Positions 1 through 56,886 of a stretch of DNA of 64,000 bases are shown piece after piece. Made by a program: the position numbers and the translations under genes. The number at the start of each line of letters is the position of its first letter. The stretch's first letter is position 1. The notes beneath the pieces are model-generated. The model did no database searches and was not told the origin of the DNA. It worked only from the letters and a program-made list of their open reading frames with translations. The stretch is from a virus. The stretch spans positions 30,375-94,374 of the IMG/VR virus record IMGVR_UViG_3300043313_001220, one strand, 5' to 3'.

Positions 1-548
1 TCGGTGTACTGGATGCCGGTCTGGCGGGTGATCGGGTTGCGCGGGAACGACTGGAGGATGCCGGACGGCTCCAGGACCGCCTCGATCTTCTTCGTGTCCG
101 CGCTGCGCTGGCCGACAAACAGCTTGTCCTCCAGCACGACGATGTGCTCGGCGATGAACGACAGCGTCCCCTTCTTGGTCGCGCCGTAACGCGCCGGGAG
201 GTTGTCGACGGCGCGGGCGACCGACGCGGCCTCCTTCAGAGCGGCCTTCAGATGACGGCCTTCGATGTACAGGCCGTCCTGCGGGTCGCGCTTGAAGCCG
301 TTCAGGTGGCGACGCTTGTCGACCTCCTTCAGCGCCTCATCCTCAGTGACACCGCGGGCGGCCATGACCTCGGCGACCGCCTGGGCGATGATGTCCTCCT
401 TGTCGAGGCCCATCTTGCTCTTCAGCCAGCCCTCGGCGACCTTCGGGTCGGACGGGGTGCCGCCCATCAGTCGCTCGATCTGGATCTCTCCGGCGAACCG
501 GAACGGGTAGACCCGGTTGATGTCAGCGGCGAACACATTCTTGGCCAT
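1..548 (-). CDS. Cas7/RAMP-like protein (partial, runs off left edge; absent from ORF track)
   Basis: Hand translation from ATG at 548: MAKNVFAADINRVYPFRFAGEIQIERLMGGTPSDPKVAEGWLKSK...HLNGFKRDPQDGLYIEGRHLKAALKEAASVAR...FIAEHIVVLEDKLFVG...TGIQYTE. FKRD..DGLYIEGRHLKAALKEAA resembles the Cas7/RAMP 'g.p.Ip.ss.KG.lR' strand-helix motif. RBS-like GAGAGGG and a strong promoter upstream. Confidence 0.7.
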   Translation of the reverse strand, partial: MAKNVFAADINRVYPFRFAGEIQIERLMGGTPSDPKVAEGWLKSKMGLDKEDIIAQAVAEVMAARGVTEDEALKEVDKRRHLNGFKRDPQDGLYIEGRHLKAALKEAASVARAVDNLPARYGATKKGTLSFIAEHIVVLEDKLFVGQRSADTKKIEAVLEPSGILQSFPRNPITRQTGIQYT

Positions 549-591: not shown

Positions 592-620
592 AGCATATCC
601 CGTGGCACATGGGGTGTCAA
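592..620 (-). promoter_or_regulatory. Sigma70/HrdB-type promoter for the Cas7-like gene with overlapping operator
   Basis: Minus strand TTGACA-N17-TATGCT; plus strand TGGCAC-N5-GTGTCA palindrome at 603-619. Confidence 0.8.
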
Positions 621-3502: not shown

Positions 3503-4845
3503 CGCAGTTTGGCCGCCAATGCCTGCATCTGTGCGACGGTGGCCAGCTGCCGGTCGACCCTGAACTCTTCGTGCAGCATCCGGTCGATGTCGGCGGTTTT
3601 AAGCTTTTTCATCCCCGCCGCCCCAAGCAGCTGCATCATCGCATCCTTGCGCGCCTGTGGGTCGTCGGTGGCCGCGATCTGCTCCTCCGGCTCACCGTCC
3701 TCCCACGGCGCGCTGACCGCCGGCAGGGTCGTCGACGCCTCTGGAGTGGCCTCCGGGTCAGCGGGAGGGTCGAGCAGGGCCTCGGATTCCCCCGGGTCCT
3801 CCTGCCAAGCTTCCTGGACATCCAGGCGGGCGTCACGGGCCTTCTTCGTATCGATCCGGGCCTGCGCCCGCTGGGCCTCCGACTCCTGCGTGCGCTGGGC
3901 GGTCAGCACCTGCTGGCGGGCCTGCCAGGCGTCGATCAGCTGCTGGTGGTCGCCGGTCTCCTTGATCCTCTTGCGGATCCCAGCCATCTCCGCGTTGGTC
4001 GTGGCCTTCGCGATCGCCTCCAGCGCCTTCGGGATGTTGGGGGCGGGAGGCACGGGGGGCACGGGGGGCACGGGAGGCACGGGAGGCACGGTGGCCGGAG
4101 CCGCCTCGATTGCCGTGGCGCGGGAGGGTTCGATGGCCGCCCGCATGGCAGCAGCCTGCTGGTCGCGGCCAAGCTGCAACACGGTGCTGACCGCGTCTGA
4201 GCCGACCTGCACCGTTCGGGAGGTCACCCCGTCTAACAACAGGATCGGCACGTTGTAATCTTTGGTGACCACTTTTCTCTCTTTGCGGTCGTATTGGCGG
4301 GACTCGCGGTTCTCCAGCAACAAGCGGGCGGGCAACGGCATGCGGATGCCCGCGATCATGTCGAACAGCTGGACCATCTCGCCGGCCGCATAATACCCAT
4401 GGGTCTCAAGCCCCCACACACCCAGGCCCGGCACGTCGGCCAAAAGCAAATCGACCCGGGTGGTCGGCTTACATCTCCGAGTTTCCGGGTCGCAGTCACA
4501 AGTGTCCCCATAGATCTGGTCCTGAACGCCGTCACAGCGGCGGCTGCACACGCCACCCGACCACAGCTCGTATGTCGGGTCAACAATCTGGGGAGGGATG
4601 AAGACTGGAATCAGCGCCGCATCGGTCACCACCTGCCACTGCTTGCCCCGGGGGGCGTCCGCCCATACCTCCATCTCTCCACCGTAGAGCGCTGCCACCT
4701 CTTCCACGAGGTGCTGGGCCGCACTTGTAAAGCGCAGAGTATCCAACCGGCTGGGCCGTTCCTTGCCCGAGCTGGTCTTGACCTTGCGGCCCAGCCGGAT
4801 GCGGCCCACCCGTACTGAGCGGATCTGGAGGTCTCGAATGGCCAT
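3499..4845 (-). CDS. recombination directionality factor-like (Gp3/RDF-like) recombination protein
   Basis: MAIRDLQ...VGRIRLG...PSRLDTLRFTS...CSRRCDG...CDC....CKPTTRV...GVWGLETHGYYAAGE pattern typical of actinophage RDF-like proteins; low-complexity C-terminus. Confidence 0.75.
   Translation of the reverse strand: MAIRDLQIRSVRVGRIRLGRKVKTSSGKERPSRLDTLRFTSAAQHLVEEVAALYGGEMEVWADAPRGKQWQVVTDAALIPVFIPPQIVDPTYELWSGGVCSRRCDGVQDQIYGDTCDCDPETRRCKPTTRVDLLLADVPGLGVWGLETHGYYAAGEMVQLFDMIAGIRMPLPARLLLENRESRQYDRKERKVVTKDYNVPILLLDGVTSRTVQVGSDAVSTVLQLGRDQQAAAMRAAIEPSRATAIEAAPATVPPVPPVPPVPPVPPAPNIPKALEAIAKATTNAEMAGIRKRIKETGDHQQLIDAWQARQQVLTAQRTQESEAQRAQARIDTKKARDARLDVQEAWQEDPGESEALLDPPADPEATPEASTTLPAVSAPWEDGEPEEQIAATDDPQARKDAMMQLLGAAGMKKLKTADIDRMLHEEFRVDRQLATVAQMQALAAKLR
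4045..4092 (-). repeat. 9-bp coding tandem repeat (PVPPVPPVPPVPP linker)
   Basis: GGCACGGG(G/A) repeated about 4 times. Confidence 0.8.
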
Positions 4846-5383
4846 CCCATTGCTCCTTCTTCTCGGTGTAGTCAATGAAGCGCTCCCGGTGGCGCTCAAA
4901 GCGCCCCAGGAGCCGATTGCAAGGTGTGCACAGGACGCCCCTGACGCACTTACCGCACGTGCGCTTACCCGGACAGCAGCTGTGATCGTGGTCGACCGGG
5001 AATCGCGGGGCCCCGGGTTCCCCGCTCGACATCTCGCCACAGATCGCACAGCCGCCACCCTGCGCGGCCAGCAACGCATCGTAGTCCTCGGGGGTCAGGC
5101 CATATCGCCTCAGTGTGATCCGCCGGCTGAGGGCCACCCGACGCTCTTGGTTCGTAATAGCCCACGCGCGCTGAGTGGCCGCCCTGCGCTCCGGGTTCGC
5201 GGCCCTCCATGCGCGGTTGGTGGCCGCTACGCGCTCCAGATTTGCGGTTGCCCATGCGCGGTGGGTGGCTGCGCGACATGCCCTACATTGGGACTCCAGC
5301 CCGTCCCGACCGGTCTTGCGCTTGGAAAACCCCCCGAGCCCCTTCGTCTCCCCGCACTTGCTACAGCGTTTCGTCTCTTCCAT
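4580..5383 (-). CDS. endonuclease VII-family HNH nuclease with N-terminal Zn finger
   Basis: KRCSKCGE...CRAC; YGLTPEDYDALLAAQGGGCAICG...VDHDH...VRGVLCTPCNRLLG. Confidence 0.88.
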   Translation of the reverse strand: MEETKRCSKCGETKGLGGFSKRKTGRDGLESQCRACRAATHRAWATANLERVAATNRAWRAANPERRAATQRAWAITNQERRVALSRRITLRRYGLTPEDYDALLAAQGGGCAICGEMSSGEPGAPRFPVDHDHSCCPGKRTCGKCVRGVLCTPCNRLLGRFERHRERFIDYTEKKEQWDGHSRPPDPLSTGGPHPAGPQGQDQLGQGTAQPVGYSALYKCGPAPRGRGGSALRWRDGGMGGRPPGQAVAGGDRCGADSSLHPSPDC

Positions 5384-5391
5384 CTTTCACC

Positions 5392-5757
5392 TCCTGGGGG
5401 GTCGTCGTGTGGAACGGGCCGGTTAGTCGTGTGGTCTGGGCCGGTGTCTGACGGCCTCGGAATGTCGGCGGGATTGGACGGTACTGGGTGGGCAAGTCGG
5501 GCGGCGTACGGGTTGGCAAGTCGATAAGAACGGATTCGCAGGGTCGTGCGGGCTGGGCGGACTTGTCCGGGGCTGGCATGTCGGCGCGGGAGGGGGGAGG
5601 GGGGGAATGTCGGGCTGTGCGGGTTCGCGGGCGGATGGCCGGGAATGTCGTACGGGCGGGCTGGGATTGCGACGGAGGGGCAAGTCGGTGCGGCGGGGTG
5701 TGGATGGGGAAGTCGGGTTGGGACGCACCGGTGGGGTTCGGGTTGTCGGGTTGGTCA
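5392..5757 (-). repeat. Non-coding pentamer-periodic array (CGAC anchor + NNNCC pentamers), about 13 units
   Basis: Minus strand reads TGAC..CGAC aaccc gaacc ccacc ggtgc gtccc aacc CGAC ttccc catcc acacc ccgcc gcac CGAC ttgcc cctcc gtcgc aatcc cagcc cgccc gta CGAC attcc...; fills the whole intergenic gap. Confidence 0.85.
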
Positions 5758-6123
5758 GCGCGTCGGCGGTTTGGTGAACGAACCGGAGATGTTAATCCCG
5801 TCCGCCAGGGCATCCAACAACAGGGTGAGTTTCAAGCTCGCGGCCATTCCCGCGTACATCGTGGCCCGGCGCTCGACGATGTTGATGCCGGCATTGTACT
5901 CTTTGAGCTTCGGGTCGTCACCGGCCCAGGAATAGGCGACCGATGCGGGGTCGACGGTCAGGTAGGGGGTGGCCTCGCCCTGCTGTGCGGCCTTCAGCTC
6001 GATCTGCTCAGTGCGCCGTCTGCTCCGCTCCCGGAGCTTGACCGACTCCTGCTCGTAGTGTGTGGCCAGCCGATCATATTCGACAGCCCACATCCGGGTG
6101 TCGTCGCGATCTGCGGGGGTCAT
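5755..6123 (-). CDS. hypothetical protein
   Basis: MTPADRDDTRMWAVEY... with GAGGAGG RBS. Confidence 0.65.
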   Translation of the reverse strand: MTPADRDDTRMWAVEYDRLATHYEQESVKLRERSRRRTEQIELKAAQQGEATPYLTVDPASVAYSWAGDDPKLKEYNAGINIVERRATMYAGMAASLKLTLLLDALADGINISGSFTKPPTR

Positions 6124-6196
6124 CTGGTCCTCCTCGGGGGGTACGTGGTGGGTGTTCTGACCATACCACGGGCCACACCACGTGGCAAGCAGCGTG

Positions 6197-18363: not shown

Positions 18364-18622
18364 ACTCCGGGACTCCGGGACTCCGGGACCACCCGGGGGG
18401 CTGTCTGAGAACGCTGGTCCCGGAGTCAGCTCACACATGGCGTGACACAATCCGTGTCACGCCATGTGTGGTATGGCCTCTTACCCCGTAAAATAGATAA
18501 AAATAAATATTTATTGCTTTTCGTCGTAACGCGACCACCCTGTGCAGAACACCCCCTGGCGGTCCCGGAGTCCCGGAGTCCCGGAGTCAGGCCATCGAGG
18601 GTCCCGGAGTGGTCCCGGAGTC
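18364..18622. promoter_or_regulatory. Putative replication origin: inverted iteron clusters around AT-rich core
   Basis: (CTCCGGGA)x3 at 18365-18388; inverted TCCCGGAG copies at 18418, 18563-18586, 18602-18620; long palindrome CACACATGGCGTGACAC..GTGTCACGCCATGTGTG; AT core 18489-18521. Confidence 0.7.
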
Positions 18623-18915: not shown

Positions 18916-20195
18916 CCACCACCATCCCCCGGGTCAAGCTCGCCCGGACCTACGCCGAGCTGCCGGCCTACCAGCCCGGTCACTGGCTCGTGGCCGGGAC
19001 TCCCGGATGGCTGCCGTACCCCTGCACCTGCTGGTACGACAATTGCAGCTACCCGAAGTGCCCGGACCGGGGGCGGCCGGAGGGAGACGCCCTGCCACCG
19101 GGATGCTGCGGGAGACGCCCTGTCGTGGCCGGGGAGCGCGCAGAAGCCCCCGCCCGGGGTTCGAATACCCGCAAGGGCCGTTCGTCAACGTGGAAGGCCA
19201 CGGAGAGCCCCAGGCGCAGCACCCGCCCGGCGGATCTGCCACAGCGAGCGGTGGGTGGTTCGTCCTCGGTGGCCGGGGATCTGTGGGCGGCCCCGTGGGA
19301 TGCCGAGCCCGCCCCGTGGGATCTGGACGAGCCGGATCCCGGCCTGGGTGGCCCCGACGACCGGTCTCCCGTGGCCACGGAGACACCGAAGCCGGCTCCC
19401 GGGCATTCGAATGGGGATGCGGCCTCTCGTCAACATTCCGAGCCAAGCGACGGACTTTACCCGCACGGCGAACGTCAACGATCGCAGGTCGAACACTGTG
19501 CCTGTGTCACACCCTGGGACCCGCCGCCGCCGGTCCTCTTGGTGGCCGACGCCAAGACGGGTCCGGTCCGGGCCGCGATCGCCCTCGACCTGCGCGGCCC
19601 GGCCGGTGACCAGCCACGGCAGGACCCCCGCGACCTCGCCGAGAAGCTCCTGGCGGAGCGCGGCTACGGCCTGAAAGGCGGCTGGAAGGACGGGCGGCAC
19701 ACGCTGCTGCTGCCGGAGGGCAAGCTCAAGACCCGTCCTGGTTTCCTGGCCGAAGCATTCAACACCGCCTCCGGCCTGCGAGAGAGCGCTCTCGCGGTGA
19801 TCGACACACCGCCGGAGCAGGCCGGGGGGGTTCATTGTCCGGACTGCCACAAGGACTGGCAGAGCGCGGGTGCCTACGGGATGCACCGCAGGAAGGGCAA
19901 CGGGATTGATTGGCCTCGATGGGCCGAGCGCTGTGTGGACCCCGCGACGATCCGGGTCGTCCCCCGAAGTGCTGGCGCTAGCGCCAGCATATCACGCCGA
20001 TCAAGCCCCGGGCAATATGATGGAGCACCACTGTTGAAGCGCGGACCGAACGGCGTCTGGCATCTGGACCCGCTCGCCCCGTGGGGTCCCGGAGGCCCGC
20101 CGTTCAGCCCCGGGAAGGCGATGGAGATCTATGAACGGGGGCGGCGGGAGCTGAAACGTTGGCATTTCGGGAAGGGCCACAACCGCGAGCGCTGA
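18912..20195 (+). CDS. hypothetical protein with Cys clusters
   Basis: 427 aa coupled ORF; CPDC..HRR zinc-finger-like segment. Confidence 0.6.
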   Translation: MTTTIPRVKLARTYAELPAYQPGHWLVAGTPGWLPYPCTCWYDNCSYPKCPDRGRPEGDALPPGCCGRRPVVAGERAEAPARGSNTRKGRSSTWKATESPRRSTRPADLPQRAVGGSSSVAGDLWAAPWDAEPAPWDLDEPDPGLGGPDDRSPVATETPKPAPGHSNGDAASRQHSEPSDGLYPHGERQRSQVEHCACVTPWDPPPPVLLVADAKTGPVRAAIALDLRGPAGDQPRQDPRDLAEKLLAERGYGLKGGWKDGRHTLLLPEGKLKTRPGFLAEAFNTASGLRESALAVIDTPPEQAGGVHCPDCHKDWQSAGAYGMHRRKGNGIDWPRWAERCVDPATIRVVPRSAGASASISRRSSPGQYDGAPLLKRGPNGVWHLDPLAPWGPGGPPFSPGKAMEIYERGRRELKRWHFGKGHNRER

Positions 20196-20203
20196 CACGC
20201 CGC

Positions 20204-20232
20204 TTGCCACGCCCGGTGGCGTGTGGCAGGAT
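20204..20232 (+). promoter_or_regulatory. Candidate promoter driving the large array
   Basis: TTGCCA-N17-CAGGAT just upstream of the first unit; operator-like TGCCAC-N5-GTGGCG. Confidence 0.55.
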
Positions 20233-20236
20233 AGGG

Positions 20237-21484
20237 GGACAAACCAGGCCAGTGCGCCTCCCGACTAGCCAGTTCGTACCACACGACAAGCCTGCCCCCC
20301 TCGCATCCGCTGCACACCGACAAGTCGTGCCGCCGCAAGCCCAGCCCACCCCCCGCTCGCCGACACATCTAGCCGTACCACACGACAAGCCTGCCCAGTG
20401 CAATGCCGCCCAGCCTTGACGACACCCCAGACCGACATATGCCCGACTGTTCACATCCACCCTACCGCCGTCCGACACCGCACGCCACACCCTCGCGCTC
20501 CGTACGACCAACCTCTCCGAATCTTGCCGACGCGCACGACATGCCGCTCTCGACACCGCCCGACCCGCACCGACACAGCACGCCGGTCCGACCCAACCGA
20601 CACGCCCGGCCACCGCAGGACTCACGACAGATCTGCCCAGCGCTCACCCATGCGACTACCCGTCCCACAGCTGGTCGGCCCCTACCCCGACACCCGACAT
20701 GGCCCATCTGTCCCAGCCGCCCGACATGCCATCCCAGCCGAGTCCTCCCCGACACTCCACCCTCAGCCGCAACGCCCCGAGACGACAGATCTGTTCCGCC
20801 CACCCCATGTGACTACCCTGCCCGGCCCTGCTCCAATATCGACTACCCGACGCAACCCCAGAGCCCCCGCTGACATATCCAGCCCGCCCGCCCCAGGCGA
20901 CCAGCCACCCCAGCTCCTGTGTCGACAACCCGATCGGCGTCACGCCAGACCCAACCCGACGACAGCCCAGACCCGCACTGTCTTACCCCGTGCTCGGACC
21001 GCCCATCCCACCCGACAAGCCCACCCGGGCCGGTACAACCCCAGCCGTGCCCCACCCCCCGACTACCCTACACACCCCAGTGCGGATCCGACACGCCATC
21101 TCATCGCACCGCCGCCGACTACCCCGGCCCTTCGTGCCCTGTCTCCGACGACCCGTGCCATCCGACAAGCCCAGCCGCGCCGATGCAACCCCACTGCGAC
21201 CATCCATCCCGCGTCATTGCGGGCCCGACACGCCATCCCTGGCATCCCCGACCCGGTACCGACAAGCCCAGCCGCCGCGCTTCATATCGACAAGCCGACC
21301 CACGCCACCCCGTGTCCTCTCCCGGCCCGTCCGACAGTGCGTCCCCACGCCGCCCAGTGGCTTCCCCACCCATCCCCCATGGCACGCCCGATCAAAGCGG
21401 CGTACTGACGAGCCCGTCCCCACCCGGCCCCCCGACAAGCCGAGCGAACTCCAACCCAGCCCCTACGACAACCCGCTGGACCGA
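20237..21484 (+). repeat. Large non-coding pentamer-periodic array (about 40 units), candidate guide-RNA array
   Basis: CGAC followed by aagcc/taccc/atgcc/acgcc then 2-8 NNNCC-like pentamers, e.g. CGAC aagcc caccc gggcc ggtac aaccc cagcc gtgcc ccacc ccc CGAC. Confidence 0.88.
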
Positions 21485-21498
21485 TAGGGAAGAGAGAT

Positions 21499-22965
21499 AT
21501 GGACAGGCGATACGAGAGTGCCGATGTCACAGCGATCTGGAGCGACCAGGGCCGCAACCTGGTCGAACGCAGCATCTGGGTCGAGGTGATGCGAGCCCAG
21601 CGCGAAGCCGGAATCGACATCCCGGAAGACCAGATCGACGCGTACGCCGACCTGGCAGCCAGCCAGGCACTGCTGGACCCGGACCACGAGGAAGCCCTGC
21701 TCGAAACGCAGGACATCGCCGAGCTGGAGAGAGAGACCAAACATGACCTGTACGCCCGACTGCGGTGGTTCAACGAGAGTGTCGGAGGCGACCACGCCCA
21801 CCGCGGGTTGACCTCGGCCGACATCACCGAGAACACCCAGCAGATCCAGATCGTCGCCTCCGCCGAACTGCTGCTAGAACACGCTGAGCAGGTCCTGCGC
21901 CGGATGTACGAGCGTGCCGGGGTGTTCGCCACGGTGCCGATCGTCGCCCGCACCCATGGCCGACCCGCGCAGCTGACCACCATTGGCAAGCGGATCACCG
22001 ACTGGATGCAGGAGCTGATGGGGGCGATGGTCACTCTCCAGGGGGCCATCGAAGGTTACGTGCCGCGGGGGATCAAAGGCGCGGTCGGCACCAGTGCCGA
22101 CATGGCGCGGACGTTGCTGTCCGGCCTGCCGGAGGGCAGCCCCGCCAGCAGGTGGGTGGCCGCCCGCCTGGCCGCCGGCACGCTGGACGACCGGGTGTCG
22201 TCCAAGCTGGCAGGCGAGACCACATCGATGCTGTCGACCGGGCAGTGTTACCCACGCTCGGCCGACCTGCCGATCATCTCCGCGACGTTGCAGCTCGCCG
22301 CCGCGTGCGGCACGGTCGCCACTGCCGTGCGGCTGATGTCCGCGCTCGGCCTGGCGGTCGAGAACCCCGACGCGCATGTCGGGTCGTCGGCCATGCCCCA
22401 CAAGAGCAACCCGCGCTACAGCGAGCGGGTCTGCAGCCTCCAGGTGGTCGCACGCGGGTATGCGGGAATGTTGCAGGAGACCGCCGGCACGCAGTGGCTG
22501 GAAGGTGACGTGTCGACCTCTGCGGCCCGCCGGATCGCCCTGCCGGGGCTATTCCACACGGTGGATTCGATGCTGGCCAACACCGCCTGGGTGTTGGACC
22601 ATCTGGTGTTCGACCTGGAGGCGATCAAGGACGAGCGCGACCTGTGGATGCCGGAGATGGCATCCGGCGCGCTGTTGGCCGCACTGGTCGAGAACGGGGT
22701 GCCACGTCAGAAGGCACACGAGGTACTGCGGCACCATTATCGGCAGATCGGCGGCCCGGACTGCGAGAGCGACCGATCGGGGACGCTGATCTACCACCTG
22801 ACCAGTGAAGACGCAGAGTTCCGGCTGACTGCGGAGCAGACCCAGGCCGCGTTCGACCCGGAGATGTTGGTTGGTTCTGCGGTGGCGATCGTGGAGGCTG
22901 TGGTCGGTGCGGAGCTCGGCGAGCTGCTGGATGCCGACCCGGAATGGCCTGGCGACCTGGTGTGA
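21499..22965 (+). CDS. purB: adenylosuccinate lyase
   Basis: TKHD, HRGLTSADI, ARTHGRPAQLTT.GKR, KGAVGT, GSSAMPHKSNP signature. Confidence 0.93.
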   Translation: MDRRYESADVTAIWSDQGRNLVERSIWVEVMRAQREAGIDIPEDQIDAYADLAASQALLDPDHEEALLETQDIAELERETKHDLYARLRWFNESVGGDHAHRGLTSADITENTQQIQIVASAELLLEHAEQVLRRMYERAGVFATVPIVARTHGRPAQLTTIGKRITDWMQELMGAMVTLQGAIEGYVPRGIKGAVGTSADMARTLLSGLPEGSPASRWVAARLAAGTLDDRVSSKLAGETTSMLSTGQCYPRSADLPIISATLQLAAACGTVATAVRLMSALGLAVENPDAHVGSSAMPHKSNPRYSERVCSLQVVARGYAGMLQETAGTQWLEGDVSTSAARRIALPGLFHTVDSMLANTAWVLDHLVFDLEAIKDERDLWMPEMASGALLAALVENGVPRQKAHEVLRHHYRQIGGPDCESDRSGTLIYHLTSEDAEFRLTAEQTQAAFDPEMLVGSAVAIVEAVVGAELGELLDADPEWPGDLV

Positions 22966-24066: not shown

Positions 24067-26319
24067 GTGGCCGAGAGCAACCAGACGACCAGCATCGACC
24101 ATGTTGAAAGTCCCAGGGTGGAGCCGCCCGGGGATGTGCGACTCCAGCTCGCGGCACTCGAAGGGTGGGCCAACAACCGGGCCATGCAACCCGAGATGCG
24201 GCTGCGTGCCGCGCTCCAGGCCCTCGCCCTGTGGCGCAAGCTCTACCCGGACCCCGAGGGGGACTGACATGGCACAGCGCTGGGCGGTACTTCGCCCGAA
24301 TGAGGACGGCCAGCACTTCCGGATGATCCGCGACGCCTCCATGTACCACATATTGGGCCACCCGGAGGAGTACGGCATTGGGAGATTTGCGGCGTTGGAT
24401 GAGCTGGACCCAGACCCGGCGGTCTGGGAGCCTGGCACCGCTGTCCTGCTGCGGGTCGAGGTCGTGGTCCCGGAGGCCGCTGGCGGCTACAAGCTCCCGG
24501 AGGACGCCGAATGAACCCGCGCCACACCCCCGAGTCGCTGCGCGCCCACAGCGCGGCCACCCTCAAGCTGGCCGAGTCTCACCTGAACGCGTCGAGCGAG
24601 GCATACCGCAAACGCTCCAGCATCCGCGGCGTGACGTTGGGCCCGGCCACCCACGACGCGCTTGCTGAGGCGTACCAGGCGTGGCGTGAATACCGGGCCG
24701 ACACCGCCCCGCCTGGGTGTCAGGATCTCATGATCCCTGAGCGTCAACCCGACGGCAGCGCGCCGGGGCTCACCCGCGTACACGGCTACGACGTCACCAT
24801 CGGCGATGTTGACGGTGGCATCGCCTGGGATATCGGCCCCGAGCCGCTGGTCCCCTTCGTATTCAGGGAGGTTGTCGAATGAGCGAGCTCGACGAGCCGC
24901 AAGACCCGCTGCTGGTCCAGCTGCACGACGCCCGGCTGGACCAGCAGGATGCCCACACCGAGGCCGTCCGCCTGATCCGCCATCTGTACGTCGACCTCGG
25001 CCAGGACGCGGGCGGTCCGCTGCACGTGGTCCTGGACGATGGCAATGTCGGCGACTTCTGGCTGCACGCGGGGCCGCACACCGATGGCTACGACCGCTAC
25101 GGCTATCTGTTCAACGGCGACTTCGCGCGTTGGTCGCAAGCCGGGGACGACGTCTCCCTAAAGCGCCGGAACGCCATCCGCGACACCTGCGAGCAGATCC
25201 TCGCCCTGCTACGCCCGATGTCCGAGCAGCATCGCCGCGACGCGATCAACGAGTTCTGGAAAGGATGGCGACCGTGAGCGGCATCCCGGCGGAGCCCACC
25301 TCGGCACAGTGCGACGCCAAGGAGCGCGTCTCAATCCCCGGGTCGACGGCCGTCGCCCATGCGGTCTGGTGGCCGCAGATGGGTGGCAAGCCCGGTAAGG
25401 CCGTAGCGACGATCGGGGACTGCTCGACGGTCTGGCTATGGCATGACGGACAGCTGCCGCTCAACGGGAGGGAACCCCGCCAGATCCACCTGTGTGGCTA
25501 TGGCGAGTGGATCGAGACGTTTGAATGGCTCAAATCGCGATATGAGCAGGAGTTTGACGAGGAGCCGGAGCCGTACGTCTGGGTCCTGCCGCAGGGGGTG
25601 ACCCGCGAGCAGGCGCAGGAGGTCTACGAGAAGATCGTCGCCTGGGGTCTGTGGGAGGTCGACCCGGGCGGGTTCCGGATCCGGACCTACGAAGAGGCGC
25701 ACGGGCCCTGCGAGCCAATCCCATGTCCGCCGTTCCAGGAGATCACCCTGCAAGCCTCGGCAGAGCGCATGGGACCGGCCCCGATCGACCAGAATCTGGC
25801 CATGCCTGCGAAGCTGGACAGCGAGTGGATGGACAGCTGGATGGGCGTGGTGAGCGCTGCCACAGCGGCAGGTTTCCTCCAGATCGACCTTCTACCCGCG
25901 CCCGGACCGGCGCAGATGCCCCGAATCATCACCCTGCCCGAGGGTGTCAACGCGGAGGAGGCCGACCGCTGGGTCCAAGGCTGCATCCAGCTCGGGATTA
26001 TCGAAGCCGGCACTGGCGGTGTGCTCTACCTCCCCCACGGGCAGCAGTTGTGAGGGCGCGCAATGTCGCTATCGCCGCGGCGATCGCCCTGGTCTTGGCC
26101 GGTGTCTGCTTCCTGATCCCCCCCAGCCCGCTCTACCCAGACGGGTCCGACCCGAACCCCGCCCCGACCCTACCGGCCTCTACTACGGTCGAGTACGTCC
26201 CGGTCGAGGGCAAGCTGGTGGTCTGTGTCTTCCGCTCCAACTACGGCATCTCCTGCGACTGGGCGAACGCCCGGCCGCTCGACGCCGGCACGACAGCCCA
26301 CGCCGTTCCGCCCAACTGA
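24067..26319 (+). other. Run of small coupled hypothetical genes (24067-24267, 24269-24514, 24511-24882, 24879-25277, 25274-26053, 26050-26319)
   Basis: ATGA/GTGA stop-start overlaps; no recognisable motifs. Confidence 0.6.
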
Positions 26320-26425
26320 CAATCCGCCCCATGCCTTCCACGATCCGCCCGACAGTGCGTCTCGACCCTGATCCACGCGTGCTACTGTTCAACCTCACGC
26401 TTCCCCTCCCATCCCGGACGACAGG
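26317..26425 (+). repeat. Mini pentamer-periodic array, about 2-3 units
   Basis: TGAC aatcc gcccc atgcc ttcca cgatc cgcc CGAC agtgc gtctc gaccc tgatc cacgc...ccctc ccatc ccgga CGAC aggagacac ATG. Confidence 0.7.
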
Positions 26426-26431
26426 AGACAC

Positions 26432-26827
26432 ATGCAACCCCAGATGAAGAAGCCGATGTACAGCGGTTTCGGCCAACGCAATAACACCACGGAGGCGCTC
26501 AAGATCGACCGGGCGTTGAAGGCGCAAGCCGAACACGACACCGAGAAGCTGCGCAAGCAGCGGCCCCAGGCGCTGCCGATGGCTCCCGGTCAGCGGGCAC
26601 TGACCTACATCGGCCGTCGGGCCACCCCGGCGCAGCGCCGCCGGGTTGAGAAGAAGAGTTATCGCTGGGCCCGGGGGGGACCGTGGCACAATCTTGGTTT
26701 GGACGTGTCAACTGCGCCCGACGGGCTGGAAGACCGGCCCGAGCTGCCCGAGTGGGACCCGACGGAGTGCAGTTGCCACATCAACCCACCGTGCCATTAC
26801 TGCACGAGCCAGGAGTTCAACCTGTGA
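26432..26827 (+). CDS. hypothetical protein with C-terminal CSCHINPPCHYC motif
   Basis: Small Cys/His metal-binding motif seen in phage proteins. Confidence 0.6.
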   Translation: MQPQMKKPMYSGFGQRNNTTEALKIDRALKAQAEHDTEKLRKQRPQALPMAPGQRALTYIGRRATPAQRRRVEKKSYRWARGGPWHNLGLDVSTAPDGLEDRPELPEWDPTECSCHINPPCHYCTSQEFNL

Positions 26828-29029: not shown

Positions 29030-30382
29030 GTGACTGACCCCACCGAGACCATCGCCGACCTGGAGCGCGAGCTCGCCAACATCCACAAGGTTCACATCGA
29101 CGACGTCCGGGCGCTGGTCCTACAGTTCGAGACCGAACAGGACCAATGGGCCGAAGAGCTGCGGAGGGCCCGCACCAGCGAGTGCGGCGCACTCTGCAAG
29201 GATATCGAGAACGACCGCGACGTTCTGGCTGAAGAGAACATGCTGCTGCGCGACCAGGGTGTGCCCGGGGTGATGCACGAGACTGACCGGGCGCTCTACC
29301 AGGCGATGGTCGCCGACCGGGACCGTTTCTCCGGCCTGCACCGCAACCTGGGTGAGCGTCAGCGGCGGCTGATCGGCGAGTATCGTGGGGCCCGATATGC
29401 GGTCAAGCTGGTCGGTGAGGTCGAGACCCTGCTGAGTGTCGCGCTCGGCAGGCCCGGGGGAGTCAACCGTGACAACCTGGTCGAATCGCTCGGCGAACTG
29501 ATCAAAGAGCGCGACCGGCACCGGGATTCTGCCTGGGCGCGGGTGTCCGACACCGAGGAGCACAACGACCAACAGCAGTCCATGCAGTACACGATCGAGA
29601 CCCAGCTGCGTGTCGATCGTGCGCCGCTGGAGGACCTCATCGTCCAGAAGCGCATCACGGAGGCGCAGACCCGCGAGGTCGAAGGGCTGGCCAACCGCCG
29701 CAACGAGCTGGTCCAGCGTGCCCTTGCAGCCGAGGGGCAGGTCAGGCGAATGGCCGACGAAGCCACACGAGAGGAGGCCCGGAGGGACCGGGAGATCAAC
29801 GAGGCGATCGCCGCCCGGGACGGCGCGTTGGCTGAGTGGTCCAAACGGTACAACGGCCTGGAATCTGCGGCCCAGACGGTCGGCCAGCAACTCACCCAGC
29901 AGATTCGGCGCAACGACCAGCTCCGCGAGCGGCGCAGCGCGGACACCCGCCTGCTGCGGATCGCCTTCAGCACGATCGAGGCCGGGTTGCATGAGGGCGG
30001 CTGGCAGAACCGCCCGGATTGGCTGGAGCGGACCCGCGAGTGGGTTGCGGCATTCCATGCTCGCGAGGACGCGCGGCACGCGCCCACCGGGGTCGACCCC
30101 CTGGACGGATTTGCGGTCCGGGCGTTCAGCAACGGGGCCCGAGAGCTGGTTCAGCTGGCCCACCGCGAATGTGACCCGCGCACCTATCCGGAGGCCCCTG
30201 GCGGCATCCAGTTGACAGTACTGACCCGCGACGCGCACTGGCACATGGCGCAGTTCCACGACGAACAGCCCGACGAGGCATCTCCCGACGACGAGAAGTC
30301 GCCGTGTGAGGACATCTGCCACCCGAGCCAGGGTGCGTGCTGCGGCAACCCGGGAAAGCCCCCCACGGAGGTTAACGAATGA
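29030..30382 (+). CDS. coiled-coil hypothetical protein
   Basis: Heptad-rich 450 aa ORF with GGAGG RBS. Confidence 0.6.
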   Translation: MTDPTETIADLERELANIHKVHIDDVRALVLQFETEQDQWAEELRRARTSECGALCKDIENDRDVLAEENMLLRDQGVPGVMHETDRALYQAMVADRDRFSGLHRNLGERQRRLIGEYRGARYAVKLVGEVETLLSVALGRPGGVNRDNLVESLGELIKERDRHRDSAWARVSDTEEHNDQQQSMQYTIETQLRVDRAPLEDLIVQKRITEAQTREVEGLANRRNELVQRALAAEGQVRRMADEATREEARRDREINEAIAARDGALAEWSKRYNGLESAAQTVGQQLTQQIRRNDQLRERRSADTRLLRIAFSTIEAGLHEGGWQNRPDWLERTREWVAAFHAREDARHAPTGVDPLDGFAVRAFSNGARELVQLAHRECDPRTYPEAPGGIQLTVLTRDAHWHMAQFHDEQPDEASPDDEKSPCEDICHPSQGACCGNPGKPPTEVNE

Positions 30383-35175: not shown

Positions 35176-35781
35176 ATGCACATGCACGAGATCATCGACC
35201 AGCAGCTCGCGGCGTTCCGTGCCTTGACCGGTCGGACCGCATTGAACATCGTCGAGACCGGATCGATCAGGTTCAACACTCCGGAGCACGAGCAGGGCGA
35301 CGGCTGGTCAACCCTGCAGTTTGCCCGCGACGTGCAGGCCAACGGAGGCAACCTGATCAGCATCGACCTGGACACCTCGGTGGCGCGCGAGGTGCTCACC
35401 CAGCGTGGGATCGAGGTGGAGGACAACTCCGACCTGTGCGGCATCCACCTGGTCGAAGGCCACTCGATCGAGGTGCTCGCCCATATGGCGCTGATGGAGA
35501 ATGGCTACCAGCTCCAGCGGCCGATCGATGTGCTGCTGCTGGACAGCGACAACGATGCTGACCTGATCCTGCACGAATGGCTGGTCGCCAAGCAGCTGCT
35601 GTCTGGCGATGCGCTGCTGATGGTGGATGACGTCGACCTCAGCTCCCCGAACGTGGTCAAGGGCCACAAGATCGCCCCGTGGCTCGACCAGTACGACGAG
35701 ATCGAGTACCGGGTGGTCCCCAGGACCGGCGGCGGGGTCCGGACCGGTGTCTTGACCGCCCACATCACCAGGGTCTGGTAA
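35176..35781 (+). CDS. class I SAM methyltransferase
   Basis: IVETGS...GWST; ISIDLD; IDVLLLDS; LLMVDD. Confidence 0.8.
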   Translation: MHMHEIIDQQLAAFRALTGRTALNIVETGSIRFNTPEHEQGDGWSTLQFARDVQANGGNLISIDLDTSVAREVLTQRGIEVEDNSDLCGIHLVEGHSIEVLAHMALMENGYQLQRPIDVLLLDSDNDADLILHEWLVAKQLLSGDALLMVDDVDLSSPNVVKGHKIAPWLDQYDEIEYRVVPRTGGGVRTGVLTAHITRVW

Positions 35782-36043
35782 TGGGCCACGGTGCAATGAT
35801 GGGCCACCCCCACAGCCTGCCCGACTGGGTCATCGACCTCGTGGCCGGACTCGCCAAGTACGACACCGAGCACCCGAAGTTGTACGCCCAATATGTGGGC
35901 AGCAGCGAGTGGCAGCAGGCCGACTGCCCGTGCGGGCTGTTGGAGTTGGTGCCGCACGAGGTGCGCATCTACACTGCCGGCTGGGCCGCCGCCAAGAGCC
36001 GACAGGCACTCGACGCCCCCCAGCCAGACGAAGGGACCCCCTG

Positions 36044-36931
36044 ATGCAGCTGGTCATCGTCCCCGCCTGGCGCAGACCCGAGTTCCTGTGGGCATGCCTC
36101 CAACGATTGCAGGCCGCCGACCGGCCGGACCTGCGGTACCTGATCTCCCAGGACCGCGGCCACACCTACGAGGTCGCCCGGATCGCCATTCAGTTCCGGA
36201 AACGGCTCGGCGCAGGCCGGGTCCAGATCGCCAGCCGCCGGCACAGCTACCACGGCAACAGCTTCAACGTGCTCGAATCCTACCGGGAGGCGGTCTCCGG
36301 GCGCGGTGCCGAGCCGGAGCTCGTCCACCTGGTCGAAGAGGACATCCTGGTCGGGGTCGACTACTTCGACTACCACGACCGGGCACACGCCCTGCACCCC
36401 GGCACGTTCGCAGTCAGCGCCTGCCGCAACCACCAATACCCGGTCGACGTCAACCCGCCAGCCGACCCGACCACGATCTACCGGCACCACAGCTATCAAT
36501 CCCTGGGGGTCAGCTTCAGACCGGAGGTGGTCCGACAATTCGCGGCCCACGCCGCCCGGCCTTACTACCGCTCGCCCGGCGCATACTGCAAGAGCGCCTT
36601 CCCCGACAGCGAGATCCCCGCTGGCCACTGCGAGCAGGACGGGCTGATCAACCGGGTCCGGGAAGCCGGCAACTGGACCACCGTCTACCCGACCGTCCCC
36701 CGGGCCTACCATGCCGGGTTCTATGGCTACAACCGGCGCGGCGGGTGGCTCAACCGGGAGGACAAGACGAGCGCGCGGCCCGAGCAGCGTGGCGCGCAGC
36801 TTCTCTCGATGGCCGGCGATGTGTTGAACAGCCGTGCGCGGCATTACAAGGATCTGACCACGACCCCCCTTGATGAGAATAGACCGGCGTTGACCCATTT
36901 GGTCGTCTGGCCGGAGTTGGGAGATCTGTGA
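36044..36931 (+). CDS. GT-A glycosyltransferase
   Basis: LVIVPAWRRPEFL; LISQD; HLVEEDILVG.DYF; EQDG; HAG. Confidence 0.8.
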   Translation: MQLVIVPAWRRPEFLWACLQRLQAADRPDLRYLISQDRGHTYEVARIAIQFRKRLGAGRVQIASRRHSYHGNSFNVLESYREAVSGRGAEPELVHLVEEDILVGVDYFDYHDRAHALHPGTFAVSACRNHQYPVDVNPPADPTTIYRHHSYQSLGVSFRPEVVRQFAAHAARPYYRSPGAYCKSAFPDSEIPAGHCEQDGLINRVREAGNWTTVYPTVPRAYHAGFYGYNRRGGWLNREDKTSARPEQRGAQLLSMAGDVLNSRARHYKDLTTTPLDENRPALTHLVVWPELGDL

Positions 36932-39715: not shown

Positions 39716-40378
39716 GTGGGCCCCCCCACCGCCGAGGAGCTGTACGAACGTCGGATGCAGGTCTACCAGCTGCGCCGCAGCGGCAGCGGCGTCACCGCGA
39801 TCGGCCAGAACCTGGGCGTCTCCCAGGCGACTGTCAGCAAGGATATGGCTTGGCTGCGGGCCAACGGTTACGAGCTCGGCGGCACCGATCTGCAGATCTA
39901 CGAGAGCGCCCGCGACCGTGCCCGCACCACCAACACCAGCGACCCCAGCCGGATCGCCGAGCTGCGCCACAAGATCGTCACCATGCGGCTGGAAGGTCAC
40001 GTGCCGCGCGATATCGCCCGCACGCTCGGGGTGGCCCTGCAGACCGTCCAGAACCACCTGGCGGCGGTGTTCAACGGGCTGACCACCCCGAAAGCCGAGG
40101 AAGCCCGCCAGCTCGAACTGGACCGTTACGACCGGCTGCTGACCAAGCTCGAACCGGGGGTTGAGGTAGGGGACGTCAAATCGATCCTGGCGGCGGCGAA
40201 GATCGGCGCGCAGCGGACCCAGATCCAGGGGCTCGACAAGCCGATGAGGATCGAGATCACCAACGTGACCGTCGACGCGATCGATGCCGAGATCGCCCGT
40301 CTGACCGAGCAGATGAATCAGGCTTCGGGTCGGGACCACGTCGACATCGAGGGCGAGGTTGTCGACAGTGGATCTTGA
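39716..40378 (+). CDS. terminase small subunit (tandem HTH)
   Basis: Two HTH motifs (IGQNLGVSQATVSKD; IARTLGVALQTV); directly upstream of TerL. Confidence 0.75.
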   Translation: MGPPTAEELYERRMQVYQLRRSGSGVTAIGQNLGVSQATVSKDMAWLRANGYELGGTDLQIYESARDRARTTNTSDPSRIAELRHKIVTMRLEGHVPRDIARTLGVALQTVQNHLAAVFNGLTTPKAEEARQLELDRYDRLLTKLEPGVEVGDVKSILAAAKIGAQRTQIQGLDKPMRIEITNVTVDAIDAEIARLTEQMNQASGRDHVDIEGEVVDSGS

Positions 40379-51214: not shown

Positions 51215-51224
51215 GGAGCGGACC

Positions 51225-51362
51225 ATGTGCAGATGTGGTAGCAAGACGAAGTTCAAGGTTGTCCTGCCGAACGGCAAGACGATGTTGAAGAACAGCCGGG
51301 CCGCGGCCGAGTTGGCCAAGGCGAAGGTGCCGGGGGCGACGATCGTGGAGGTCAAGAAGTGA
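51225..51362 (+). CDS. small basic protein (MCRCG...)
   Basis: GAGGAG RBS; 45 aa. Confidence 0.55.
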   Translation: MCRCGSKTKFKVVLPNGKTMLKNSRAAAELAKAKVPGATIVEVKK

Positions 51363-51646
51363 GCCCGTTCGGCGTTGGCATCCCGGTTCATTATGTCGCC
51401 CGAGGGTCGGCAGACGGCAGGTTCCCGTCGATCTGCCGCGCCGCCTGGGTCACCGAGATCGACGCGGACGACCCGGACACGGTCGGTGTGTTCGTCGCCA
51501 ATCCAACGGGGCTGTTTTTTTACAGCCTCGGGGACGGTGGTCTGCCTTACGACGACGGCCACCCGCCGGACGGCTCTCTGGGGGCGACATGCGGTGACGG
51601 CATGATCTATCCGGGCGGCACCTGGCACCGGCCGCCGGGGGCGTGA
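51359..51646 (+). CDS. hypothetical protein
   Basis: G.PVHYV..GS.DG..PS.CRAA.VTE...NPTGLFF...GTWH. Confidence 0.65.
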   Translation: MSPFGVGIPVHYVARGSADGRFPSICRAAWVTEIDADDPDTVGVFVANPTGLFFYSLGDGGLPYDDGHPPDGSLGATCGDGMIYPGGTWHRPPGA

Positions 51647-53031
51647 ATATGGACCTGTCGATCCGCGCCCGCGCTGCCACCGCCATCTTCGACATGGCGA
51701 CGTTCGGCTTCAACCCCGGCCAGAAGCGCGGTCCGGATGGCCGGTTCATCAAGATGGGCGGGCGCGGCAGTGCCGGCAAGGGCGGCCTTCCGAAAGGCGC
51801 GCGGCCCAGTGAAGGCGGCGGGGCCGGTGCTGGTGGTGGTGGCGGCACCCTCCCGGCCGCGACGCCTCCTCCACCTGCTCCCGCCGCGCCCCGCCGCATG
51901 GACGAGCTGGATCGACGGATCGCCGACAATGAGCAGTTGATCAACGAACCCGGCGAGGAATACCTCGCCGACCGTCGCCGCGCCGATCTGGAGATCCAGA
52001 AGAAGGCGCGAGCCACGTTCGGAGACCCCGAGCCGGGCGAGACGGACGCCGAACACGAGGCTCGGGTGTTCTCGAAGATCAAAGCGGCTGCGGCTGTCGT
52101 AGATGACGCGAAGGCCGCAGGCTGGGTGTCGCGCGTTACCCACGGTACGGACATCAGCGGCATGCCGTTCGTGACCGTCGAGGTGGGCAACCCCGACACG
52201 AAAGAGACCTTCAGCACGACCTGGCACACCCGCAAGAACGGCACCTACCAGCTGTTCAGTCAGTCGACGGTGACGCGGGTTAGCGACAAAGGCATATTTG
52301 AGGGTGGCCGGAGATACGGCAGCGAGCGCACACCCACCAAGCTCCGCGAGATCATGGCACAGGAACCCGCGGCAGGCGCTCCGGCTGCTCCTGCGAACCC
52401 GGCGGCGGCCACCCCGGGGATCGGGTCGGACGGCCAATACGTCAAACCGGTCAAGCAGGTCGCGACCTGGAACGGGCAGGTTGAGACCCGGACCTCTCGA
52501 CACCCATACAACTACGTGTCAGTCGTGCAATTCGGTGGCGACGAACCTGTGATCCTGTCGTGGCATCGCACCCGGGCGGCAGCCGAGAAAGGCACACTGA
52601 CCAAAAACCAGCGCGACAACGGGTCGCGGGTGGTCGCGGTGGCCGAAGTCAAACCGGAGCAGCCGGGGGAGAACGCCTCCGCCAGTGCTGAGGCGCAACG
52701 TCTCGACCGGCTGGTGAAGAACGCCACCACGATGTACGGGTCGGACGAGTCGAAGTGGCCGGCGCGGGCACAACAGGACGTCGCCCGACTGCGCAAGAAG
52801 CGGGCGGCGATGTCCAGCGATGCCGACGTCTTCGCGATGCCCGATGACCTTGCCGACCACTGGATCCACGGTGAAGGTGCGGCCAAGATCCGCTGGTGCA
52901 CGGAAGGGGCCTTCGAACGGGCGCGCAGGGCACTACGTGAGCACGTCCCCGCGCCGATGCTTGACGGCACGGTCGCCAACCTCTACAAGCGGGCATGTGG
53001 CAAGTGGCCGGGACAGGACCGGGACCAATGA
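51643..53031 (+). CDS. putative virion-associated protein with RARAA/FNPxQxRGPDG signal
   Basis: N-term DLSIRARAATA...FNPGQKRGPDGRF; C-term W..GEGAAKIRW..EGAF.R...G..ANL. Confidence 0.7.
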   Translation: MNMDLSIRARAATAIFDMATFGFNPGQKRGPDGRFIKMGGRGSAGKGGLPKGARPSEGGGAGAGGGGGTLPAATPPPPAPAAPRRMDELDRRIADNEQLINEPGEEYLADRRRADLEIQKKARATFGDPEPGETDAEHEARVFSKIKAAAAVVDDAKAAGWVSRVTHGTDISGMPFVTVEVGNPDTKETFSTTWHTRKNGTYQLFSQSTVTRVSDKGIFEGGRRYGSERTPTKLREIMAQEPAAGAPAAPANPAAATPGIGSDGQYVKPVKQVATWNGQVETRTSRHPYNYVSVVQFGGDEPVILSWHRTRAAAEKGTLTKNQRDNGSRVVAVAEVKPEQPGENASASAEAQRLDRLVKNATTMYGSDESKWPARAQQDVARLRKKRAAMSSDADVFAMPDDLADHWIHGEGAAKIRWCTEGAFERARRALREHVPAPMLDGTVANLYKRACGKWPGQDRDQ

Positions 53032-56701: not shown

Positions 56702-56886
56702 TGGCACGCATGCCGGGGCGTCTCTTTCCGTCGTGGTGCCCCTCGTGCAAACGCCCGGCAGGTGTGGACTGCCCGGACACCGCCAAAAGCCCCCGGACCG
56801 TCCGGCGGATGTTGGCGCGCGAGCTGCGCCGCATGGTAGACTCGGCCCGACCGTGATGGCACTCCGTGATGGAGAGAGGTGGGCGT

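What the first reader, a model, noticed from the sequence alone, without database searches (positions are those of the whole stretch)
5392..5757. Second pentamer array embedded in the leftward operon
It has the same grammar as the 20.2 kb array but on the minus strand (about 13 CGAC-anchored units with first pentamers ttgcc/attcc/atgcc/aaccc). It begins at the TGA stop of the upstream gene (TGA-C doubles as anchor) and ends at the RBS of the next gene. The C-rich strand again matches the direction of the flanking genes, so orientation tracks transcription. That argues for an RNA function carved out of polycistronic mRNA.
Basis: seen in the sequence. Interest (0 to 1): 0.8.

Follow-up and report, generated by a model that had tools for sequence, protein, structure and literature searches.

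The report
Phage guide-RNA array, C-coded VIPR variant
This 370-base gap between two phage genes is a real array of about 13 short RNA units written in five-base steps. It is most likely one of five guide-RNA arrays serving a lone Cas7-like protein of the phage, a variant of the VIPR systems described in 2026 that fixes a C where the published systems fix G-G-pyrimidine.

Summary
Window 5384-5754 (minus strand) is untranslated and very C-rich (C 49%, G 19%). It carries 13 CGAC anchors, mostly spaced 5k+3 bases apart, so a unit is GAC plus 4-7 five-base steps that end in C.

A unit profile built only from the 20.2-kb array finds 10 hits here. Dinucleotide shuffles give 0.44 on average.

The phage (94 kb, complete, uncultured, actinobacterial type) has five such arrays. 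All are C-rich on the coding strand of their neighbours.

This matches the VIPR architecture (bioRxiv 10.64898/2026.04.26.720920), but with the complementary fixed base, no structured tail and arrays dispersed through operons.

Not shown: the RNA strand, the processing, protein binding and any target. No target was found.

The scan has already reported VIPR-like arrays in many other genomes and for other arrays of this genome. I rate this a new variant of a known kind.

The parts
5384..5754 (-). The finding: a C-ladder array of 13 CGAC-anchored units. Each unit is GAC plus 4-7 five-base steps ending in C. It fills the untranslated gap between two genes of a leftward operon.
   Evidence: C 49.5%, G 19.3%. 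55 of 58 pentamers end in C. 10 profile hits against 0.44 in shuffles. Codon-position GC is flat (0.66/0.66/0.70) in the ORF that overlaps it.
5755..6123 (-). Upstream gene (122 aa, no family found). Its TGA stop abuts the array.
   Evidence: It has a ribosome-binding site and codon-position GC of 0.60/0.48/0.82.
6160..6188 (-). Sigma-70-like promoter (TTGCCA, 17 bases, TATGGT with TG) just after the exonuclease stop. It is the likely start of the transcript that carries the array.
   Evidence: In relatives the homologous promoter sits directly in front of the array.
4580..5383 (-). Endonuclease VII / HNH-type gene directly after the array, with its ribosome-binding site at 5390-5395. It is absent from this position in relatives, where the Gp3-like gene follows the array.
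1..548 (-). Cas7-like (Vipr-type) RAMP gene, 248 aa. It runs off the left edge of the window; the whole gene is genome 30176-30922. It is the likely protein partner of the arrays.
592..620 (-). Promoter of the Cas7-like gene (TTGACA, 17 bases, TATGCT).
9706..9896 (-). Small sister array (3 anchors, spacings 32 and 28).
20201..21491 (+). Large sister array (46 anchors), used as the source of the unit profile.
26266..26486 (+). Small sister array (5 anchors, weaker ladder).

Best explanation
The gap encodes one of five guide-RNA-type arrays of a VIPR-like system carried by the phage.

Inferred steps:
1. The leftward early operon is transcribed through the array, giving a C-rich, G-poor and nearly unstructured RNA.
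2. The RNA is divided, physically or functionally, at each GAC punctuation mark into about 13 units of 23-38 bases.
3. Protomers of the phage's 248-aa Cas7-like protein bind one five-base step each. They grip the fixed C at the end of the step (with a pyrimidine preference just before it) and expose the variable bases.
4. The resulting short filaments read DNA of rival mobile elements or of the host by gapped base pairing, as shown for Escherichia phage SUSP1 VIPR.

Shown here: the array grammar, its strict linkage to the Cas7-like gene across unrelated genomes, its sense orientation relative to genes and promoters, and its rapid turnover with a conserved ladder.

Inferred only: transcription, processing, protein binding and DNA targeting.
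For: Grammar:
- The array itself is documented.
- Across 1,403 units from 137 arrays the ladder C stands at +8, +13, +18 ... +33 after the anchor (84% falling to 68%) and at -5 and -10 upstream. Spacings peak at 33, 38 and 43, that is 5k+3.

Partner protein:
- The protein has a Cas7/Csm3 fold.
- No Pfam RAMP or Cas1 match exists anywhere in the phage.

Linkage:
- 63 of 64 loci encoding a homologue carry at least 4 profile hits.
- The hits pile up in the 1.2 kb just upstream of the gene on its sense strand: 1,155 on that strand against 223 on the other.
- No other gene of this phage is shared with those loci.
- A related 80-kb phage without the gene has no arrays.

Strand:
- In SUSP1 the GGYNN arrays lie on the vipr sense strand.
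- Canonical-type loci carry a G ladder on that strand in 58 of 62 cases. This clade carries a C ladder in 57 of 64, and in 49 of 53 loci with GC of 0.60 or more.
- Promoters pointing into arrays: 9 sense, 0 antisense.
- Arrays end 15-25 bases before the start codon, which leaves no room for a divergent promoter.
- The sense RNA folds at -66 kcal/mol (z +1.35). The antisense folds at -156 kcal/mol.

Protein and code change together: the published G-contact residues R138, D177 and W178 align with T, A and S in this clade, while R179 of the pyrimidine pocket is kept.

Turnover: where the Cas7-like genes are 90-95% identical, step positions 1-4 differ at about 47% and the ladder C at 22%.
Against: - No RNA data exist for this phage or clade.
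- Sequence homology to published Vipr proteins is not demonstrable. The hhalign probability is 3% (E 0.014), although the alignment is collinear over 150 columns. The residue mapping rests on that weak alignment.
- The published hallmarks GGY and a structured 3' tail are both missing.
- Units are short (4-8 steps against 9-16 published).
- No accessory (vap) gene was recognised.
- No target was found under any pairing rule tried. The searches covered the phage's own genome, about 1 Mb of related loci, and 401 actinomycete genomes for one guide, where 11 one-mismatch hits compared with about as many control hits.
- The pairwise-alignment result on ladder conservation may be inflated, because the aligner favours C-C columns.
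Confidence: 0.65

Rival explanations
1. Same system, opposite strand. The functional RNA is the G-rich antisense transcript. It would read as GNNNN/GGNNN steps followed by GTC at the 3' end, and so fit the published 'NNNNG/NNNGG' variants without any change of code.
For: The reverse complement of the ladder is a G ladder, and the preprint lists NNNGG, YNNNG and NNNNG repeats. On the antisense strand the anchor would sit at the 3' end, like the published 3' tail.
Against: - No antisense promoter was found at any of 166 skewed segments, against 9 sense promoters.
- Arrays abut ribosome-binding sites and stop codons, so an antisense start would have to lie inside unrelated coding genes.
- Canonical arrays are co-oriented with vipr.
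- The G-contact residues are replaced in this clade.
- The antisense RNA is predicted to be strongly folded.
Confidence: 0.12
2. The RNA is bound by the Cas7-like protein but is not a programmable guide. The array would act in cis, or as a decoy. It could tune stability or translation of the operon message, store or titrate the protein, or soak up a rival's protein, as satellite 'solo vrRNAs' do.
For: The arrays sit inside operons in front of many different genes. The units are short. No targets were found. Decoy vrRNAs are documented for SUSP1 satellites.
Against: The variable positions turn over fast while the ladder is kept. That is what a guide repertoire under diversifying selection would show, and a pure binding platform would not need it.
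Confidence: 0.12
3. A Rho-loading (rut-like) or merely unstructured C-rich spacer that attenuates or separates genes, unrelated to the Cas7-like protein.
For: A C-rich, G-poor, unstructured, untranslated RNA is what Rho prefers (established knowledge).
Against: This reading explains neither the five-base ladder, nor the 5k+3 punctuation, nor the near-obligate linkage to the Cas7-like gene. A related phage without that gene has no arrays.
Confidence: 0.04
4. DNA-level sites, either iterons for a double-strand DNA-binding protein or an origin or partition element.
For: A 9-10 bp motif (CCGACWWSCC) is repeated about every 30 bp.
Against: - The spacing is not in phase with the helix (22-38 bp).
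- The strand asymmetry extends through the spacers.
- The orientation flips with transcription.
- The periodicity is 5 bases, not 10-11.
Confidence: 0.04
5. A proline-rich protein is encoded, by ORF 5361-5813 or ORF 5423-5728 on the minus strand.
For: Open frames of 150 and 101 codons exist.
Against: - Codon-position GC is flat (0.66/0.66/0.70), against 0.60/0.48/0.82 and 0.69/0.50/0.88 in neighbouring genes.
- The periodicity is 5 bases, not 3.
- The longer ORF starts inside the upstream gene.
- The sister arrays carry stop codons.
Confidence: 0.01

Closest known systems
VIPR (Viral Interference Programmable Repeat) systems. Reference: type II system of Escherichia phage SUSP1 (bioRxiv 10.64898/2026.04.26.720920, .720927 and 10.64898/2026.10.15.759431).
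   Same: - Phage-borne.
- A lone small Cas7-like RAMP with a helical bundle, thumb and G-loop.
- No other cas genes.
- Non-coding arrays with five-base periodicity, in which a fixed part alternates with hypervariable bases.
- Arrays co-oriented with the protein gene.
- The complement of the fixed base is depleted at the variable positions.
   Different: - The fixed element is C (NNNYC or NNNNC) on the sense strand, not GGY.
- There is no conserved structured 3' tail. A 3-base GAC step punctuates the ladder instead.
- Units have 4-8 steps, not 9-16.
- About 85 units are spread over five intergenic gaps across 27 kb of early operons, rather than flanking the gene.
- No vap partner was recognised.
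- The protein is not alignable with confidence to SUSP1 Vipr, and its G-contact residues are replaced.
'Staggered' vrRNA arrays of VIPR (legend of fig. S18 of the same preprint).
   Same: Units adjoin directly, and the last base of one unit is the first of the next. Here the ladder C is also the C of CGAC.
   Different: The figure, and the taxa and strand it shows, are not available to me. The text names only G-based repeat consensi.
Class 1 CRISPR crRNA bound by a Cas7 backbone (type III Csm3, type I Cas7).
   Different: The step is 5 bases, not 6. There are no identical repeats with spacers, no Cas5, Cas6, Cas10 or Cas1, and no adaptation module.
Rho utilisation (rut) sites.
   Same: C-rich, G-poor, unstructured, untranslated RNA.
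   Different: rut sites have no five-base ladder, no GAC punctuation and no linkage to a RAMP gene.

Membership tests
VIPR system | Sequence homology of the protein to published Vipr proteins. | tested here: inconclusive
   Profile-profile comparison with 18 SUSP1-type Vipr sequences gave probability 3%, E 0.014, collinear over 150 columns. phmmer against PDB sequences found nothing.
VIPR system | Tandem pentanucleotide repeats in the intergenic DNA next to the gene. | tested here: met
   A five-base C ladder appears in 1,403 units. 63 of 64 loci carry arrays, concentrated within 1.2 kb upstream of the gene.
VIPR system | The fixed GGY motif (or the listed NNNGG, YNNNG, NNNNG variants) on the transcribed strand. 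| tested here: not met
   On the strand of the gene, of its neighbours and of the promoters, the fixed base is C. It would be met only if the RNA came from the antisense strand.
VIPR system | An invariable structured 3' tail after each repeat tract. | tested here: not met
   Units adjoin through a 3-base GAC step with no conserved tail. The sense RNA is predicted to be nearly unstructured.
VIPR system | An accessory vap gene beside vipr. | tested here: inconclusive
   The neighbours here are a DNA methylase and an unassigned gene. No neighbour is shared with the 64 loci.
VIPR system | Guides match natural DNA targets by gapped pairing (the 1-base skip rule). | tested here: inconclusive
   There was no excess over shuffled guides in the phage's own genome, in about 1 Mb of loci, or in 401 actinomycete genomes for one guide. 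Power was low because the guides are short.
VIPR system | vrRNAs are expressed as discrete small RNAs and co-purify with the protein. | not testable with these tools
   This needs RNA sequencing and biochemistry.
CRISPR array | Near-identical direct repeats separated by unique spacers of similar length. | tested here: not met
   Only a 4-base anchor plus a degenerate ladder recurs. Tandem Repeats Finder reports only short local repeats here.
Rho utilisation site | A C-rich, G-poor, unstructured untranslated RNA stretch of about 80 bases or more. | tested here: met
   C 49%, G 19%. Fold energy -66 kcal/mol for 374 bases, z +1.35. This is a matter of composition only. It does not account for the ladder or for the gene linkage.

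The most novel reading that the evidence does not exclude
A whole actinobacterial and actinophage clade of Cas7-like proteins has rewritten the VIPR protein-RNA grip. A single C every five bases (NNNNC) would replace G-G-pyrimidine. A 3-base GAC step would chop early polycistronic messages into one-helical-turn mini-guides. With four rather than two variable bases per step, the DNA pairing rule would differ from the published 1-base skip rule. This would be a natural orthogonal guide scaffold.
Probability: 0.45. Interest if true: 0.8.

Novelty: new variant of a known kind. Interest (0 to 1): 0.6.

Why it matters
VIPR was described only in 2026, and all the published text available to me gives G-based repeat codes.

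A clade in which the fixed base on the transcribed strand is C, and in which the published G-contact residues are replaced at the same time, would show that the protein-RNA grip of these guides can be rewritten in nature. It would offer an orthogonal scaffold for programmable DNA binding.

It would also show that guide arrays can be scattered through ordinary phage operons, filling stop-to-ribosome-binding-site gaps. That bears on how such arrays are found and annotated in phage genomes.

For this window it explains an otherwise puzzling set of long non-coding gaps in a tightly packed phage genome.

Tried and rejected
Tools and lookups that gave nothing:
The closest relative (a 96.6-kb contig, proteins 88-91% identical) could not be fetched, so unit gain or loss between near-identical phages could not be tested.
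- No close relative exists among isolated phages.
- Rfam found no family in the array, and ARAGORN found no tRNA in the window.

Readings held before the VIPR lead and then demoted:
- Rho/rut site.
- Primase-site array.
- RNase E or toxin decoy.
- Stoperator-like sites.
- Iterons.
None of these explains the five-base ladder together with the gene linkage.

Checks that were negative or uninformative:
- A global Fourier analysis of C does not show period 5, because each anchor shifts the register by 3. The periodicity appears only when units are aligned on the anchor.
- Target searches were all at control level. They used rules NN, NNN or NNNN per step with 0-3 skipped bases. The databases were the phage's own genome, about 1 Mb of related loci, and 401 actinomycete genomes for one 8-step guide.
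- The skewed segments of locus L010 turned out to be coding DNA, not arrays.
- My crude gene caller gave only about a 3:1 majority for 'C-rich strand = flanking gene strand' across all loci. I rely instead on the promoter counts and on the position of arrays against the Cas7-like gene.

Full report
WHAT IS THERE

The window is the right-hand 64 kb of a complete 94,374-bp virus record with direct terminal repeats. Its GC content is 67%. It has no close relative among isolated phages.

On the minus strand a 122-aa gene ends with TGA at 5757-5755. An endonuclease VII gene starts at 5383, behind an AGGAGG ribosome-binding site at 5395-5390. The 371 bases between them are 49.5% C and 19.3% G.

The gap holds 13 CGAC anchors. 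Their spacings are 33, 28, 37, 38, 29, 37, 23, 24, 32, 38, 22 and 3. Read from each anchor, the sequence is GAC followed by five-base steps. Of 58 steps, 55 end in C.

The ORFs that overlap the gap have flat codon-position GC (0.66/0.66/0.70). Real neighbouring genes show 0.60/0.48/0.82 and 0.69/0.50/0.88. The gap is therefore non-coding.

IS IT MORE THAN CHANCE?

A position matrix was built only from the 46 units of the 20.2-kb array.
- It finds 10 hits above 8 bits in the finding.
- It finds none on the opposite strand.
- It finds a mean of 0.44, and at most 3, in 500 dinucleotide-preserving shuffles.
- With the four anchor columns masked, the flanks of the finding's anchors score +3.5 on average. 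The 1,982 other CGAC sites of the genome score -4.5 (sd 3.4). Other positions inside the same C-rich gap score -3.8.
- Across the whole genome only the arrays reach three or more hits per 374-base window.

THE WIDER PATTERN IN THIS PHAGE

Strong C-over-G skew marks five intergenic stretches. In genome coordinates they are 29640-30180, 35758-36131 (the finding) and 40080-40270 on the minus strand, and 50575-51865 and 56640-56860 on the plus strand. Each is C-rich on the coding strand of its neighbours, and together they hold about 85 anchors.

After the exonuclease stop at 6197 there is a promoter-like site, TTGCCA-17-TATGGT. Three related metagenome contigs have an exonuclease about 54% identical. 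In them the same kind of promoter (TTGACA-17-TATGCT or TATGAT) is followed directly by an array of 11-15 units, which runs into the ribosome-binding site of the Gp3-like gene. The array position is thus conserved while its unit sequences are not.

THE LEAD

Up to this point my best guess was an RNA landing pad for Rho or for an unknown single-strand binding protein. Earlier notes of this scan on other parts of the same genome pointed to VIPR systems. I checked that reading myself.

The preprints describe three features:
- a lone, phage-borne Cas7-like RAMP called Vipr;
- vrRNAs made of 9-16 YNNGG repeats followed by a structured tail;
- one protomer bound per five-base repeat, which sequesters GGY and presents NN for gapped pairing to DNA.

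They also mention NNNGG, YNNNG and NNNNG variants, and 'staggered' arrays whose units overlap by one base.

THE PROTEIN

Immediately left of the window edge, running to window position 548, is a 248-aa gene with its own TTGACA-17-TATGCT promoter. The first array follows it.

A model built from 24 homologues has pLDDT 78 and pTM 0.72. It matches only Cas7-family proteins.
- Foldseek gives probability 1.0 and E about 6e-6 to Csm3 and type VII Cas7.

The Pfam RAMP and Cas1 models find nothing anywhere in the phage. The gene is therefore a lone RAMP.

LINKAGE OF PROTEIN AND ARRAYS

The protein has more than 1,100 homologues. I fetched 64 loci. They come from Streptomyces, Nocardiopsis, Streptacidiphilus, Actinomadura and other actinomycete assemblies, and from viral contigs.
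- 63 of the 64 carry at least four profile hits.
- There are 1,155 hits on the gene's sense strand and 223 on the other strand.
- The hits concentrate in the 1.2 kb just upstream of the start codon.
- Typically the array fills the space from the stop codon of the preceding gene to the ribosome-binding site of the Cas7-like gene.
- None of the other genes around the arrays in this phage is shared with those loci. The protein gene and the arrays therefore travel together as a module.
- A related 80-kb phage has no homologue, and its skewed stretches are ordinary coding DNA.

THE CODE

Aligned on the anchor, 1,403 units from 137 arrays show the following.
- C stands at +8, +13, +18, +23, +28 and +33, falling from 84% to 68%.
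- C stands at -5 (78%) and -10 (72%) upstream of the anchor.
- The position before each ladder C prefers a pyrimidine.
- Spacings peak at 33, 38 and 43, that is 5k+3.

A unit is therefore GAC plus six to eight steps of NNNYC. The C of CGAC is at the same time the last ladder C of the previous unit. That one-base overlap resembles the 'staggered' architecture named in the preprint.

In three pairs of loci the Cas7-like genes are 90-95% identical. In those pairs step positions 1-4 differ at about 47% and the ladder C at 22%. The arrays thus turn over much faster than the gene while keeping the ladder. A caveat applies: the aligner may favour C-C columns.

WHICH STRAND?

The reverse complement of the ladder is a G ladder, which could in principle be the published NNNNG or NNNGG code. 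Six observations favour the C-rich sense RNA.

1. In SUSP1 itself the GGYNN tracts lie on the coding strand of vipr. The SUSP1 protein carries the published residues H17, R138, D177, W178 and R179.
2. In 62 loci of canonical-type Vipr homologues the G ladder is on the vipr sense strand in 58, and in 9 of the 12 with GC of 0.60 or more. In this clade the C ladder is on that strand in 57 of 64, and in 49 of 53 high-GC loci. The ladder base therefore changes with the protein clade, not with base composition.
3. Stringent sigma-70-like promoters point into arrays nine times in the sense direction and never in the antisense direction.
4. Arrays abut stop codons and ribosome-binding sites, which leaves no room for divergent promoters.
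5. The sense RNA of the finding is predicted to be almost unstructured (-66 kcal/mol, z +1.35). The antisense folds at -156 kcal/mol.
6. In a weak but collinear profile alignment (probability 3%, E 0.014), the G-contact residues R138, D177 and W178 correspond to T, A and S, which are conserved in this clade. R179 of the pyrimidine pocket is kept.

I put the sense reading at roughly five to one over the antisense reading. Only RNA data can settle it.

WHAT IS NOT SHOWN

- No target was found. Guides parsed as NN, NNN or NNNN per step, with 0-3 skipped bases, match the phage's own genome and about 1 Mb of related loci no better than shuffled guides. One eight-step guide searched in 401 actinomycete genomes gave 11 one-mismatch hits, about as many as the built-in control. 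The short units give these searches little power.
- No accessory gene was recognised.
- Transcription, processing and protein binding are inferred.
- The figures and data tables of the preprint are not available to me. I cannot tell whether this clade is among its seven types, or on which strand it was read.

VERDICT

The finding is real. It is one of five sister arrays, and it is best explained as guide-type RNA of a VIPR-like system.

It departs from the published description in five ways:
- the fixed base is C rather than GGY;
- units are punctuated by a GAC step instead of a structured tail;
- units are short;
- arrays are dispersed inside operons;
- the G-contact residues of the protein are replaced.

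The scan has already reported VIPR-like arrays in more than 200 other genomes, including variants with other fixed letters, and has followed up other arrays of this same genome. This array adds a well-controlled example rather than a new class. I rate it a new variant of a known kind, with interest 0.6.

Noticed in passing
window 10803-10909 (+): Rfam scores a tRNA here (46 bits against a gathering score of 29), but ARAGORN finds no tRNA gene in the whole window. It may be a tRNA-like element rather than a decoding tRNA.
   Followed up: no
window 4580-5383 (-), tandem repeat 5161-5269: The endonuclease VII gene after the array has flat codon-position GC (0.66/0.63/0.67). It contains 2.4 copies of a 45-base repeat. 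It shares an 81-base stretch at 80% identity with the endonuclease VII gene of Arthrobacter phage Kovu. Relatives lack it at this position, so it looks like an inserted homing-type gene.
   Followed up: partly
window 63925-64000 (+): 3.6 copies of a 21-base tandem repeat (98% match) lie at the very right end of the genome, next to or inside the terminal repeat.
   Followed up: no
window 18340-18621 (+): A cluster of perfect 8-11-base tandem repeats (ACTCCGGG x3.2, GTCCCGGA x3.4) surrounds an A+T-rich patch at 18490-18509, just after the primase-polymerase gene. This could be an origin or a regulatory region.
   Followed up: no
window 20190-20240 (+): The large array is preceded by an inverted repeat (GCCACGCC...GGCGTGTGGC) that overlaps a TTGCCA-17-CAGGAT promoter-like site. 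This could be an operator or a terminator in front of the array.
   Followed up: no
proteins P0230, P0235, P0260: Canonical SUSP1-type Vipr proteins (about 40% identical, D-W-R G-loop) also occur in Gordonia, Rhodococcus and Streptomyces. Actinobacteria therefore host both the G-ladder clade and the C-ladder clade.
   Followed up: partly
window 21409-22965 (+): An adenylosuccinate-lyase-like gene follows the large array directly. Other notes of the scan report a PurZ-type module at 11.8-15.5 kb, so the phage may carry modified adenine.
   Followed up: no
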